NCBI GenBank assembly: GCA_021613535.1
Contig: CP075492.1
Location: forward strand, 496,001-560,000
Direction: 5' to 3'
DNA: 64,000 nt
Source: Adineta vaga
Lineage: Eukaryota > Animalia > Rotifera
The position numbers were made by a program, and so were the translations under genes. The notes under the pieces were generated by a model that did no database searches, was not told the origin of the DNA, and saw nothing but the letters and a program-made list of their open reading frames with translations. Shown in pieces: positions 1-48,443 of this stretch; within the stretch, counting starts at the first letter, position 1; the number at the start of each line of letters is the position of its first letter.

Positions 1-8
1 TAGAATTT

Positions 9-67
9 GAGGGTGAACGTAAGAGTAAGAGTAAGAGTCAAAAAGATATACTCTCGTCCACACCCTC
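9..67. repeat. Small degenerate foldback with GAGGGTG...CACCCTC ends (telomere-like)
   Basis: ttGAGGGTGaacg(taagag)3...actctcgtccaCACCCTC; the ends match those of the larger hairpins at 3899 and 7122; no target-site duplication (TSD) visible. Confidence 0.55.
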
Positions 68-99
68 GAAAAACCGTTCCAGAGGGTACTTGGTATTTG

Positions 100-200
100 G
101 GCTACAGTTCTTCGACAAGACGTCCTATGACTTTTGTCCAAGAACAAAAATTCTTAGAACTGATTAATACACAAGCCTTGAAGGTTTCAAACGATTTGGT
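100..200 (+). pseudogene. Possible hAT transposase relic
   Basis: RRPMTFVQEQKFLELINT resembles the hAT RPF..VE..GF..L motif; very short. Confidence 0.25.
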
Positions 201-729
201 GAATGTTGTGTATATCGTGTCACAAGTACCATGGAATCACGCATTATCATTGCATAAGAAATTTGCCTTTGAAAACGAAAGAGTTGTTACTGATAAAAGT
301 TTTAGCTATGTCTCTTATTGTCATGATTATCGGAAAATATGCTGACGTATTCGTATTATTATACAGATCATTAAACTTTACTTTACTTGACGTCAAATCA
401 TCTTACTTTAATATTCTTATTTTATGTATATTTTATAGGAGAAAATAATATCGAATGGCTGTGAATGTGAAAATAGTTTGATTATCAAACGATTATAATT
501 ATTCAAAAAGCTTTATTTATATATTCAAGGAAAAAGAAAATCATTTTTCGATTTTTAATCTCTTTTCATCATATTCAGTTTTTTTTTCGTTATGAATATT
601 ATCAATATATAATATTTTATACCCATAAGGATTTATGATAAGAATTTCGTCGAATAATTAAATTGGAAATTTCAAGTCAATAAATAGCGAGACAATGTGA
701 GATTTTTATTCTATAAAAAAAATCTTCTA

Positions 730-1389
730 ATGATGAATACAATGAAAATGTATTTTTATTTTTTGTTTCTGTTTTTGGTTTTACAATGTAATGGAAATTT
801 AAATTTACCAACAAATACAATTCAAATTCCTTCCAATCGAATGTATAATAATTTCATTCGATCTGAAAAATATTATGTTAAACAACAGTTACCAAGAGTC
901 TTTACATTACATGGTCCATCAGAAACTTTTGTCAAATTACCTGGTTTAACAATACCTTTTTATCATACACAACCATTATTATATAAAATTAAATTCGAAG
1001 GAAAATGTTTTTCACCTCATTCGAAAGCAATTTGGTTGTATTTGCGTCTAATGATTGATGATTACTTGCTTTATATCAATCGAGTTTTACCAAATACTGC
1101 TGATCGATATAAATATATTGGTGAATACCCGGACAACGATGGCAATGATTATCTTGGTGGACTTTATTGGCATTCAAATTCAGTATCAGTCATAACATGC
1201 TCATTTAGTGATATTATATATTTAAATCCTGGTTTGCATGTTGTTGATGTAAGTGTCCGAGGTGGACTTGGTGATTCAGGTGCTTTTCCAACCTATGTTC
1301 ATGGTGGAGTGTTAACAGTTGAAATGATTGAATATGATCAGTATGCAGATATTGGTTTAACACCAATGAATGCTACTTTTTCAGGTTAA
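730..1389 (+). CDS. Secreted beta-rich protein of unknown function
   Basis: Intronless ORF with a hydrophobic signal peptide (MYFYFLFLFLVLQCNG) and a beta-strand-like C-terminus (IYLNPGLHVVDVSVRG); exact start ATG uncertain. Confidence 0.7.
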   Translation: MMNTMKMYFYFLFLFLVLQCNGNLNLPTNTIQIPSNRMYNNFIRSEKYYVKQQLPRVFTLHGPSETFVKLPGLTIPFYHTQPLLYKIKFEGKCFSPHSKAIWLYLRLMIDDYLLYINRVLPNTADRYKYIGEYPDNDGNDYLGGLYWHSNSVSVITCSFSDIIYLNPGLHVVDVSVRGGLGDSGAFPTYVHGGVLTVEMIEYDQYADIGLTPMNATFSG

Positions 1390-44329: not shown

Positions 44330-45118
44330 TCAAACCATTAACCAGAAATTGTCAATTTTCTTTTGCATTTTCATAAGTTTATCTTTGCCATTCTGAGACA
44401 AATTACAATTAAATAAAAATAATCTCTTCAATGTTTGACTATGTTTCATTAATTGAATAAGATCATCAACAACATCATCATCAACCGAACGATTTGTACA
44501 AAAATCCAATTCTTCCAGAGTTCTATTGTGATATTGGATTGCATTGATTATCATTTGAATACCTTGATTACCAATTTCATTTCCAGCTATATGAAGAGCA
44601 GTTAATCTTTCATTAGTTTGAATCATTTCAGCAAGATATTTTGCACCAACATTTGAAATTCTGTTTGTTGTTAGATCTAATACTTTTAAATTGTTCTCAT
44701 TTATGGAAAGTACTTTGGCTAAGTGAAGAACACCATCATCACCGATGCGATTATCCAATAACTGTAGTTCTTCGAGAATATTCTCAGTATTGTTTAATGC
44801 ATTAGCCAAGATAGAAGCACCAGTGAATGTCACTTTGCATCGCGTTAGTTGAAGAACTCGACATTGTTTTTTGATCACAGCCTCTTCGACAACATATTCA
44901 ATATCTCGATCATTTAAATCTTGAGATAAATATACTGTTGAATACGCTGGAGAACGAGCGATTTCTTGTCTTAAATAAACATTTTCTGGATCGATCAACA
45001 AAAACAAGAATAGTCAATTATTTATCAATCTGGAAAACATACCTGATGCTGCATTGTCATCTGTAACTTCGTTCGTATCTTCATGTGGAACTTTTTTTGA
45101 TTTCTTTTTTGATGTCAT
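44330..45118 (-). CDS. RI-type LRR protein
   Basis: Repeated L.L..N.IG..G...LA..L..N..L; short upstream exon with a GT donor near 45041. Confidence 0.85.
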
Positions 45119-46686
45119 GTCTATAGTGAATAACAAACAAGATTGCTAAACGTCAACCTTGGAATCAACAAACCAATTTTAATGATAAAACTACACCGTA
45201 TTGCGGTATTGTCAACCTTTTTATATGCAGTTGTTTTCTGATGCAATGAATCAAAACACGTGTATTCGGATGTACTTGTTTTTGGTTGAGTAATAACAAT
45301 ATGATATGAAAAAAAACCGTATGTAAATATTTATTGACACTCGATTATTCATACAGAGGATTTTATCAGGTATTTCGAATAGAAAATATCAGCCATTTGT
45401 TAGCTATCTGTTGTATAGCATACTATTTGATCCTATTGATTCACACTTTTGTTAACCAAAGTTTGGTATAATAATTTATATACTACAGATTCACTGACTC
45501 TCTGTAAAAAAATACCATTTGTCAAGAAAGTCTTGGTACGAAATAGGTTTTGAAGTGTTGATGTCAATCAATCATCAATACTTATTGTGACAATCTCTCT
45601 GACATACGCTGTACGCGTGATACAGTTTTTCTCATCTAATGGATTATCCTTATCTATGTACATTCTGATGTACTTTGATAGAATATTTTCCTGCGTTCTC
45701 TTCTGTAGGGACGAGTATATAAACGCGTGTCTTGTATCAGAACGATGCGATTTACGAGGAAGAAATAAACAAAGGCGTAGTTCCATCAGCGCATACATCT
45801 CTTCCATCAAAAATCGTCACACTTATAAAGTATTTTTTCATATATAATACGAAGGATTGTACTACAACAAACTATGAAGAGCACGTGATATGTGGTCTAT
45901 AGGGTCAACAACAGTTTTTCGCATACCGGATAATTGTTGATGAATGTCATTAGATACTTCACAGTACATTCAGATGAGGATGAAAGAAGAGAGTGCTTCC
46001 GTCACAGTATTCATATTCCGGAGTTAACTCGAATTATAGCGTGGATGGAATATTCCTCTGTCAGCCATATTCACATCTTTAAAATATATGAGAACCAATG
46101 TAAATGTTCTGCCGCTATTTCAATCGTATTCGCTTCACAAAATCTTCTTCTTCTTTTGACAATTATCATACTGATTTTTAGAAAAGAAAAGTGAAATTAA
46201 GTCTCAGAACCTTTGAATAGAAAATGACGTTGATCTGCAATTTTTATCCTTCAATAAAAGAACTGTTAGGACAAGCAGATAGTTCAAAATGTCCTCTTCA
46301 CATTAGTATCGAACGAATCTTGTCTATACGCTTACCGAAAATGTTAAATGAGACGTTTTCGGTGCTTGCTTACAAGATTCGATGACTTATTCGCTTTTGT
46401 CCGGCAGCTGAGATCTTCGACCTGGGTTTTGTTTATAACAATGACCAAGGATATTATTATTTATTGTTGAAAGATGCGAATCATAATATAACGAAATTTT
46501 CGTCCAGAAACATAATCTTATTCTTCAACAATCATCGCATTGATAAGAAAGAAATGCAAACTGAGGGTGTTTGTGACGTCAAATGTGGTGAAAGAACATG
46601 ATGTCATAATGCAACTAAATGATGTTCTCGTACTAGAAATAAACTATAAATATACTCAAAGATTAGTTGAGATCGAACATCGAACA

Positions 46687-47774
46687 ATGATATTCGAAAT
46701 TCTACCTGTTGAAATAATTCGAGAAATCTTTGAATATCTCAATGGTTTCGACATTTATCAATCTTTCTATGGATTGAACAAACGTTTAACATCAATCGCT
46801 CTCTCAACTATGGAATTACATATCGATCTGCGCGAAGTTACGTCAAACGAATGCATTCAAGTAAGTCAATCATCAAAGTATTTCATCTATCGTTAAAGAT
46901 GATCACATCTAAGTAGATGATAAACTTGGTGAATCCATCACACATCATTTCTCTCAAATTGACAAATAAATGGGATAGAAATCAAATTGAGTCAATCATT
47001 CGCATTTATCCAATCAGAATGTTCACCCAAATTCGATCGTTAACATTTGATCTGCTAAGTATAACTAATCTCGAAGAAATCGTAGATATTTTACCTTTAT
47101 TAACTTCTCTCGAATCTTTGACAATCACTTCGAACGAAAATCCATCATCGAACATTTATTCGAAATTATTCTATCGTCTCCGTCATATTAAACGACTTCG
47201 TTTCATTGCTCTCAAGGGAAAATTGGTTTGTTGGGGTAATATCGATATTCGTCAATGGCAACTCGACGCATCTTACAATTTTCGACATTTACAAATCAAT
47301 CCATTGAATTTTTCTCACTTTAGCCTTTTATTTCCTTATCTTCCATATCTTCGATCGATTGAGACGAGTCTCTGTTTTGGTAATGCACCAATTCCGCATT
47401 TGCCAAATGTGCGTTCGTGTATTCTCTATTTCGGTTTTTACGGATTTCCTGAACTAACTGATTTCCTTCAACAATGTCCCAATTTAAAAATACTCAAACT
47501 CGAAACGACAGGAATCGACGTCGTGGATGGTCATCAATGGGAAAATATCCTCACGCGTGTATTGCATCGTCTTCAACGTTTCAATCTTCTCGTGGAATTT
47601 ATGGGAGATCATGATGTTGAAAGTTGTAGAGCTTCTTTTCAAACATAATTTCGGATTCAACGTGCTACACAAGTGAATTTAGTTGAAAGTCATATGCACA
47701 TCGCACCAGATGACATTCGTACAGTTTATCAAATGACAATCGATTTCGATTATCTAAATCAACATCAATCTTAA
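46687..47774 (+). CDS. F-box/LRR protein, possibly with a premature stop at 47646
   Basis: FEILPVEIIREIFEYL...SFYGLNKRL; intron 46861-46916; the frame stays open for ~40 codons after the TAA. Confidence 0.8.
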
Positions 47775-47955
47775 AACTAAAATAGCTTCCGTGTTTTTTC
47801 TTTAATAAACTCTCTATTTTCTGCCGTTCATTTGATCACTTTATGAAAGAACATCGACTGTGTGAGATTTCCTGCTTAGCCTGAAAGACAAGTATCGTGA
47901 GTATGCGAACAGAAAGATAACATCCTCACCTACGTTTAATACTTATTGAATCACA

Positions 47956-48420
47956 TTATAAGACAGTCCGACTCGTTTGAACTGCCTTCTCGAAATACTC
48001 TACTGCGTTGGAATATTCACTCAGTCTTGCAAATGTTAAGCCTATCTTAAAGTAAGTCTTGGCTAGACTGGGATGAGTCGATGGCACAGTTTGTTTCTGT
48101 ATTTCAAGTGTCTGGTTGTAGTTTTCAAGAGCTTTTGAGTGTTCACCTATGTTAAAATACACATCTGCGATATTATTGTAGCTCGTTACGATATTCGGAT
48201 GAGTTAGTGGCAGAACTTTACGCCAGATTTCAAGTGCATTTTTGTAGTTTTCAAGAGCTCTCAGATATTCGCGCATTCGAGAATACATTGAACCGATGTT
48301 ATTGTAACAGGTGGCTATACTCAGATGAGTCGATGGAAGAGTTTTCTGTAGAATATACAGTGCTCGATTATAGTTTTCGAGAGCTCTAGTGTACTCACCC
48401 ATATCATAATATACCAAACC
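47956..48420 (-). pseudogene. TPR-repeat gene, 3' remnant
   Basis: 42-aa ATCYNNIG..Y..M.EY..AL repeats; cut mid-repeat at the telomeric tract. Confidence 0.85.
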
Positions 48421-48443
48421 TTGAGGGTGTGGGTGTGGGTGTG
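48421..48443 (+). repeat. Telomeric-repeat tract at the retroelement 3' junction
   Basis: TTGAGGG TGTGGG TGTGGG TGTG. Confidence 0.9.

What the first reader, a model, noticed from the sequence alone, without database searches (positions are those of the whole stretch)
7..48443. Recurrent (TT)GAGGGTG-ended telomere-like tracts mark gene breakpoints across the window
Seen: tracts at 7-15, 61-67, 3899-4091, 7122-7279, ~9753-9766, ~10061-10078, 34140-34154 (1 mismatch), ~39407-39425, ~43603-43612 and 48421-48443. Six have the exact outer end TTGAGGGTG/CACCCTCAA; in the longer tracts the outermost unit is TGAGGG even though TGTGGG dominates inside. Three coincide with truncations: MACPF-LRR at 3898, the Cys-TM paralog at 39422 and the TPR gene at 48420. 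No TSDs are visible. Inference with two alternatives: (a) scars of telomerase healing of double-strand breaks followed by rejoining; (b) ends of a telomere-mimicking DNA-transposon family (GAGGGTG TIR, AA-starting target) that causes adjacent deletions and provides internal docking sites for endonuclease-less Athena elements. Option (b) would be a two-component system I do not know to be described.
Basis: partly seen in the sequence, partly recalled or inferred. Interest (0 to 1): 0.85.

Follow-up and report, generated by a model that had tools for sequence, protein, structure and literature searches.

The report
Fixed-start telomere scars stitch broken DNA
In this bdelloid rotifer region, short telomere-repeat tracts that nearly always begin with the same letters sit where unrelated DNA pieces were joined, most likely as scars of broken ends capped by a telomerase-like enzyme; a recurring 18-letter spacer between facing tracts may be a copied piece of that enzyme's RNA.

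Summary
The tracts are real. All 5 arms with a usable reference sit exactly where homology stops: a multicopy repeat (67/68), MACPF (3898), a homologous flank (7122), the Cys-TM gene (39425) and the TPR gene (48420). The fixed start is general: in 41 metagenome Athena-type 3' ends chosen without regard to the outer end, 18 of 18 tracts ending CCTCA carry the extra A (p 4e-8). One 13-letter template reproduces all three repeat units. Option (a), healing then rejoining, is supported; option (b), a TIR transposon, fails TSD, flank-continuity and fixed-end tests. The spacer's source is open; read-through of the telomerase RNA beyond its template is my lead (about 0.35). Neotelomeres and Athena docking are known in bdelloids; the start register and the spacer family were not found in the papers I could read.

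The parts
7..16 (+). G-strand arm starting TTGAGGG; left arm of head-to-head joint J1
   Evidence: left flank outside the window
17..57 (.). 41-bp spacer of J1 with three GTAAGA units
   Evidence: 9 of 18 letters match the T1/T2 spacer on the fixed diagonal, p about 0.05, post hoc
58..67 (-). Right arm of J1 (starts CGAGGG on the - strand); cuts a multicopy repeat exactly at 67/68
   Evidence: other copies of the repeat carry unrelated letters before 68/69 in all four runs (table 7)
1764..3898 (-). MACPF-LRR gene lacking its first 69 residues relative to homologue P0122
3899..3955 (+). T1 left arm, TGTGGG/TGGG units, preceded by A
3956..3973 (.). 18-bp spacer of T1, identical to 7138-7155
3974..4091 (-). 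T1 right arm, starts TTGAGGG, one TGAGGA variant
   Evidence: contigs enter it from the right flank
7123..7137 (+). T2 left arm; a homologous flank in run X22 lacks the joint
   Evidence: X22 record 9, loose end read by eye
7138..7155 (.). 18-bp spacer of T2; member of a dispersed family of joints
   Evidence: 15, 16 and 15 further contigs in X15, X5, X4 lie only on 7121-7163
7156..7279 (-). T2 right arm, starts TTGAGGG TGAGGG TGAGGG, same TGAGGA variant as T1
9757..9766 (-). Single short arm starting TTGAGGG
   Evidence: covered without differences by short-read contigs; breakpoint not testable
10065..10078 (-). Single arm starting CGAGGG
   Evidence: breakpoint not testable
39407..39425 (-). 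Single arm starting TTGAGGG at the cut end of the second Cys-TM module
   Evidence: alignment to the in-window paralogue stops at its residue 198, while the module runs to about 470
47956..48420 (-). 3' remnant of a TPR gene cut inside a repeat
48421..48443 (+). Arm starting TTGAGGG; docking site of the Athena-type element
48444..48492 (-). Athena/Terminon-type 3' end: minimal hammerhead core and short linker
   Evidence: core motifs and stems read; whole-fold z-score 0.34 and no Rfam hit
54736..58838 (-). Intron-containing RT gene with bdelloid relatives

Best explanation
The tracts sit at joints between unrelated DNA pieces and are most likely internalised neotelomeres: a telomerase-type enzyme likely capped each broken end starting from one fixed template position (TTGAGGG), and the capped ends were then likely rejoined to uncapped DNA, to an Athena 3' end, or head to head across a short conserved spacer that is predicted to be copied from a template. 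Shown: motif, orientation away from the flank, position at discontinuities, fixed start, recurrence of the spacer joint. Inferred: a single template reading TTGAGGG then TGWGGG (13 letters, perhaps with one more pairing-only position that favours a C before it); the alignment half keeps A, which is why the first unit is TGAGGG even where TGTGGG dominates; realignment on 2-3 letters gives TGTGGG, TGAGGG and TGGG. Inferred, weaker: the 18-bp spacer is read-through of the template RNA past its boundary, whose end then pairs by a few letters with the second capped end; T1 and T2 are probably copies of one event. Not shown: which enzyme and which RNA.
For: 6 exact ends against 0.27 expected. 5 of 5 arms with a reference lie at discontinuities. 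5 of 5 long arms start AGGG against 7 of 54 inner A-type units. Segments 68-3898, 4092-7122 and 39426-48420 are capped outward at both ends. 41 non-redundant metagenome ends: 18 CCTCA+A, 0 CCTCA+G/T, 6 CCTC, 7 CCT, 4 CTCAC, 6 other; p 4e-8; G follows in 10 of 18 (p 4e-4). Letters before TT are not conserved in the window (T,C,G,A,G,C), so the boundary is sharp. At the TPR break the repeat pattern predicts an Ile codon that shares at most one letter with the tract, so the start is added, not a target. One template reproduces the three units. Spacer joints recur with other flanks, ungapped, 5-7 differences in 39-43 letters in the 21 pieces listed, some in mid-contig; chance of 11 or more of 18 matches is 0.004. 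Neotelomeres at deletion breakpoints are reported in A. vaga (PMC13564844 passages); read-through next to the template is reported in vertebrates (PMC8537989 passages).
Against: One paper failed to find TERT in A. vaga (PMC5405514 passage), so the enzyme is open; my memory that bdelloid TERTs were cloned in 2007 comes from no call. Among further tracts in the same loci only 4 of 7 ending CCTCA carry the extra A (counted by eye), and G follows in only 2 of 6 window cases. A fixed 3' end of an Athena RNA would also give a fixed start. 5 of 10 arms could not be tested for a breakpoint, and about 54% of the span is coding, so falling in genes is no enrichment by itself. T1 and T2 share a TGAGGA-TGGG-TGGG pattern, which points to DNA-level copying, and other spacers differ at several places that I could not read. 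No parent RNA gene for the spacer was seen; exact scans of the prokaryote and metagenome collections found none. Only 5 of 51 metagenome loci are tied to bdelloids by protein hits. The template simulation also allows units (an extra G) that are rare in the window.
Confidence: 0.72

Rival explanations
1. Athena-type reverse transcriptase, not telomerase, writes the tracts: its RNA ends in CACCCUCAA, primes on raw breaks, and most products are cut short inside or just after the repeats.
For: TERT not found in A. vaga by one study; Athena 3' ends carry reverse-complement repeats; most of the 18 CCTCAA tracts are about two units long; nested stubs cut near the hammerhead core exist (L007, L008).
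Against: Arms without any element sequence show long, variable mixes of three units, as expected from repeated realignment; the same start is shared by many different linker families. The narrower form, spacer = ribozyme-cleaved Athena 3' stub, failed: best match to 41 linkers is reached by 428 of 2000 shuffles and no loose end continues into a hammerhead core.
Confidence: 0.15
2. For the spacer only: head-to-head joints spread by DNA repair copying; two capped ends are bridged by copying an existing joint (strand invasion through the repeats), so the spacer is old filler that propagates.
For: T1 and T2 lie 3 kb apart with identical spacer and the same inner variant pattern; other copies differ at 5-7 places; microhomology repair and BIR are proposed for bdelloid subtelomeres.
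Against: Many related copies have very short arms that give little homology for invasion (loose ends); the spacer starts with TTGAG, the same letters as the template start, which filler would not predict.
Confidence: 0.3
3. A TIR DNA transposon or MITE with telomere-like ends.
For: Facing arms form inverted repeats around a conserved core of fixed length at many loci.
Against: No TSD; unrelated flanks at T1; arm length 10-124 nt; four arms lack a partner; ends differ (TTGAGGG, CGAGGG, AGGG); the two real TIR elements in the window have other ends.
Confidence: 0.05
4. Assembly or polishing artefact (joins at low-complexity repeats; T1 interior copied from T2).
For: The laying tool skips the repeats and no listed short-read contig is shown to bridge T1.
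Against: Flank-to-tract edges and the T2 spacer up to 7152 are in contigs of three studies with 0 differences; the contig stops at exactly 7152 in all three, as expected if a second locus shares 7123-7152; related joints lie in mid-contig.
Confidence: 0.04

Closest known systems
Neotelomeres at deletion breakpoints in Adineta vaga (PMC13564844; passages seen, fig. S25 not readable)
   Same: Telomeric repeats and Athena fragments at breakpoints; scars left after repair.
   Different: The passages describe (TGTGGG)n presence only; no fixed start register, template inference or head-to-head spacer family.
Athena/Terminon 3' docking on G-rich overhangs (PMC6431247 section 8; PMC3846280 and PMC8557442 passages; the 2007 and 2017 primary papers were not held)
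   Same: Hammerhead core, short linker and ACACCC stretch joined to a short tract at an internal site (48421-48492); host genes caught between elements.
   Different: Most arms here carry no element; the outer end of the tract is stereotyped and independent of the element family.
Vertebrate short ITS and TERC-ITS type B (PMC8537989 passages; Nergadze 2007 seen as listing and abstract start)
   Same: Repeats at repaired breaks; a fragment right after the last repeat copied from the RNA just 5' of the template; a few loci with facing arms.
   Different: There 4 of 41 loci are type B and 3 of 41 head to head, and most have an empty orthologous site; here facing arms with one spacer recur many times in a genome and join unrelated pieces. 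The RNA source is proven there, untested here.
Stereotyped first repeats of de novo telomeres in yeast (Kramer and Haber 1993; title only, in a reference list)
   Same: New telomeres begin with a selected register of a degenerate repeat.
   Different: Different template; here most junctions need one letter of pairing or none.
Fusion-type head-to-head ITS (defined in PMC8537989 passage)
   Same: G arm facing C arm.
   Different: Short arms, many per region, with a shared spacer; they join gene-sized fragments, not whole chromosomes.

Membership tests
Telomerase-healed break (neotelomere / short ITS) | Host telomere motif with the G strand running away from the flank | tested here: met
   10 arms; motif TGTGGG per PMC8494291 passage
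Telomerase-healed break (neotelomere / short ITS) | Sits at a discontinuity relative to an intact homologue | tested here: met
   5 of 5 testable arms; 5 arms untestable
Telomerase-healed break (neotelomere / short ITS) | Start in a template-defined register | tested here: met
   18 of 18; 4 of 7 among further tracts; 5 of 5 long arms
Telomerase-healed break (neotelomere / short ITS) | Made by TERT with its RNA | not testable with these tools
   no genome held; TERT reported missing by PMC5405514
TERC-ITS type B | Extra fragment lies directly after the last G-strand repeat | tested here: met
   spacer follows GGG directly in T1 and T2
TERC-ITS type B | Fragment matches the telomerase RNA 5' of its template | not testable with these tools
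   no rotifer telomerase RNA in the papers searched; no parent locus recognisable
TIR DNA transposon / MITE | Target-site duplication | tested here: not met
TIR DNA transposon / MITE | Insertion into one continuous site | tested here: not met
   MACPF N-terminus absent beyond T1 and from the window
TIR DNA transposon / MITE | Paired ends of fixed sequence and length | tested here: not met
   arms 10-124 nt, three kinds of start, four unpaired
TIR DNA transposon / MITE | Autonomous partner with the same ends | not testable with these tools
   no genome; the two transposase elements in the window have other TIRs
Athena/Terminon (element at 48444 onward) | 3' hammerhead core followed by linker and ACACCC stretch | tested here: met
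   motif read; Rfam gave no hit
Athena/Terminon (element at 48444 onward) | PLE-type RT without C-terminal GIY-YIG | tested here: inconclusive
   120 listed relatives, nearly all named bdelloid, none with a GIY-YIG accession that I recognised; no tree built; the name Athena comes from the papers, not from a hit
Ribozyme-cleaved Athena 3' stub (for the spacer) | Similarity to post-hammerhead linkers and an intact parent | tested here: not met
   428 of 2000 shuffles as good; no hammerhead continuation among the loose ends shown (3 rows hidden)

The most novel reading that the evidence does not exclude
Bdelloids use a routine RNA-templated end-joining route: the telomere-writing enzyme caps one break from a fixed start, reads on past its template into about 18-22 further letters of its RNA, and that tail bridges to a second capped end. 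The scars then spell out the template and adjacent part of a bdelloid telomerase RNA that I could not find described, and one letter in the templating half would explain TGAGGG versus TGTGGG telomeres. If TERT is truly absent, the writer would be a Penelope-type RT with a small RNA.
Probability: 0.35. Interest if true: 0.85.

Novelty: new variant of a known kind. Interest (0 to 1): 0.6.

Why it matters
It turns scattered repeat scraps into a readable record of break healing in an animal known for surviving massive DNA breakage, gives break polarity for every patch in subtelomeric regions, and yields a precise search handle (13-letter template plus spacer) for the bdelloid telomerase RNA, which also bears on whether these animals use telomerase or a retroelement RT. 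A recurring templated bridge between two capped ends would be an unusual joining route.

Tried and rejected
Exact scans for the spacer: 0 in metagenome contigs, 0 in prokaryote genomes, 1 viral match not examined and taken as chance. Head-to-head pattern in viral contigs: 9 matches, GC 0.41-0.73, unrelated spacers, chance. No head-to-head joint in the 51 metagenome loci; their whole records were not searchable. Rfam: only miRNA-hairpin mimics below gathering score on T1, no hammerhead hit. Spacer as cleaved Athena stub: not significant. The guess that 9767-10060 is a gene fragment: only a 105-bp non-coding match to 22792-22896, no Pfam hit. No close homologue of the Cys-TM piece. tblastx self-comparison gave unusable statistics. 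X21 and X22 mostly do not cover the region; that is no proof of absence. 34140, 43603, 46562, 20428 and 42588 rejected as chance-level. Literature searches; none returned a description of the TTGAGGG start or the spacer in rotifers, but Gladyshev and Arkhipova 2007, Arkhipova 2017 and Mason 2016 were not held and the supplement of PMC13564844 held no usable text; any of these may already show the junction sequences.
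Full report
Setting. The window is AT-rich (32% GC) eukaryotic DNA; its RT piece has 262 relatives, the 120 listed being nearly all named Rotaria, Adineta or Didymodactylos, and its repeat is TGTGGG, the A. vaga telomere motif (PMC8494291 passages). 24 sequencing runs were listed, 8 holding half or more of the words of 1-10000.

Observation. The nine-letter end occurs 6 times against 0.27 expected, maximum 1 in 60 simulations. 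Parsing shows 7 A-type units among 54 inner units, yet all 5 long arms have A before the first GGG. Starts are TTGAGGG (6), CGAGGG (2) and AGGG (2).

Anatomy. Three pairs face each other: 7-67 (41-bp spacer), 3898-4091 and 7122-7279 (identical 18-bp spacer, same inner TGAGGA-TGGG-TGGG pattern, so probably one origin). Segments 68-3898, 4092-7122 and 39426-48420 are thus capped outward on both sides. No TSDs.

Breakpoints. Other copies of the repeat at 68 onward continue with unrelated letters exactly where the arm begins, in all four runs. The MACPF-LRR gene aligns to P0122 from its residue 70 at base 3899 and the missing part is nowhere in the window. A contig of run X22 matches 6971-7091, can be followed by eye to about 7122, and lacks the joint. 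The Cys-TM module stops at paralogue residue 198 of about 470. The TPR remnant starts inside a repeat. That is 5 of 5 testable arms; 5 others had no reference. Coding sequence is about 54% of the span, so the evidence is the exact coincidence with loss of homology, not location in genes.

Independent test of the start. I scanned metagenome contigs for hammerhead core + linker + CACCCWCACCC, which does not select the outer end: 51 loci, 52 matches; 9 duplicates and 2 GC-rich loci were dropped, leaving 41. Ends: 18 CCTCA+A, none CCTCA+G/T, 6 CCTC, 7 CCT, 4 CTCAC, 6 other; p 4e-8 for the extra A, and G follows in 10 of 18 (the tolerant parser moved three loci into the CCTCA+A class that one search had scored otherwise, 15 of 16 there). 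Among further tracts in these loci 4 of 7 show the extra A. Most of these loci have TGAGGG-type repeats, so the TT start is shared by both telomere types. Only 5 of 51 loci are tied to bdelloid RTs by tblastn; the rest are presumed bdelloid from motif and composition.

Template. A single 13-letter template, identical to window 48421-48433, regenerates TGTGGG (realign on GGG), TGAGGG (realign on TG) and TGGG (realign on GTG). This is inference; it explains why the first unit is A-type.

Spacer family. Laying contigs on 6841-7163 gave the window's own contig (0 differences, ending at 7152 in three studies) and 15, 16 and 15 further contigs in X15, X5 and X4 that lie only on 7121-7163; the 21 pieces listed are ungapped with 5-7 differences in 39-43 letters, 25 rows were hidden, 3 per run are 90-95% alike; 8-10 per run have unlike left flanks and several hold the joint in mid-contig. 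Some short contigs may be parts of one locus, and the runs may be one strain, so 'at least about eight other loci' is the safe count. Even if all differences lie in the spacer, chance is 0.004 per joint. One loose end shows 14 more letters before a single-pass partner tract, which would fit a longer read-through, but it is one case. The letters of the other spacers were not visible.

Mechanism and rivals. Healing from a fixed template start, then joining, is the best reading (0.72). At 48421 the cap became the docking site of an Athena-type 3' end, as described in PMC6431247 section 8. For the spacer I weigh read-through of the telomerase RNA, like vertebrate TERC-ITS type B (PMC8537989 passages), at about 0.35, DNA-level copying of an existing joint at 0.3, and a cleaved Athena stub lower after a failed similarity test. 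The enzyme is open because PMC5405514 did not find TERT (passage). The TIR transposon fails three defining features.

What is known. Seen as passages: PMC13564844 (supplement unreadable), PMC7943196, PMC2861651, PMC3846280, PMC6431247 (section 8 whole), PMC5405514, PMC12133305, PMC4209133, PMC5537684, PMC8537989, PMC11626172, PMC8494291, PMC8557442. Neotelomeres, interstitial repeats and Athena docking are known. Ten searches showed no account of the fixed start or the spacer family, but three key papers were not held. Nine earlier AI notes on other bdelloid genomes report similar head-to-head scars with related spacers; they agree but I did not check them, and my read-through idea was noted before I saw them.

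Verdict. Real feature, option (a) essentially right, option (b) wrong; new variant of a known kind; interest 0.6, rising to 0.85 if the spacer leads to the RNA.

Noticed in passing
window 11580-13502 and 15246-16355: About 1.1-kb inverted repeats (92%) built on 164-bp tandem arrays flank a 336-aa ORF without Pfam hit; foldback-like element.
   Followed up: no
window 5433-6678: Mariner element with open 374-aa transposase ORF and 44-bp TIRs, multicopy in all runs laid; lies inside the capped fragment 4092-7122.
   Followed up: partly
window 58948-61389: DDE_3 transposon with perfect 28-bp TIRs and a stop between its two ORF halves, just upstream of the RT gene.
   Followed up: no
window 33384-33471: Degenerate C-rich 43-bp repeat with a perfect 16-nt telomere-like run lacking the TT start; inside an unexplained GC-richer segment 32000-33640.
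   Followed up: no
window 32033 and 38900; L047:13-54: Shared 22-nt motif at the edges of two non-coding segments, with a 42-bp look-alike in a metagenome locus; possible end of a small DNA element.
   Followed up: partly
window 207-10450: Unique pieces have about half the depth of some paralogous contigs and no second allele is listed over 979-3889, a weak hint of hemizygosity.
   Followed up: no
window 7288 onward, run X5 record 26: This contig has 764 letters before 7288 and is not the contig that covers 6841-7152; alternative join or chimeric path.
   Followed up: no
L007, L008, L031: Nested Athena-type stubs cut inside or next to the hammerhead core and re-capped by a new tract, suggesting the ribozyme fold stalls the RT.
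   Followed up: no
window 7-17, 9756-9766, 39415-39425: Three arms read TTGAGGGTGAA; repeated G-to-A variants (also TGAGGA in T1/T2 and L032) are unexplained.
   Followed up: no
window 31498-41265: At least six modules of a Cys-rich transmembrane family without Pfam hit, several broken.
   Followed up: partly
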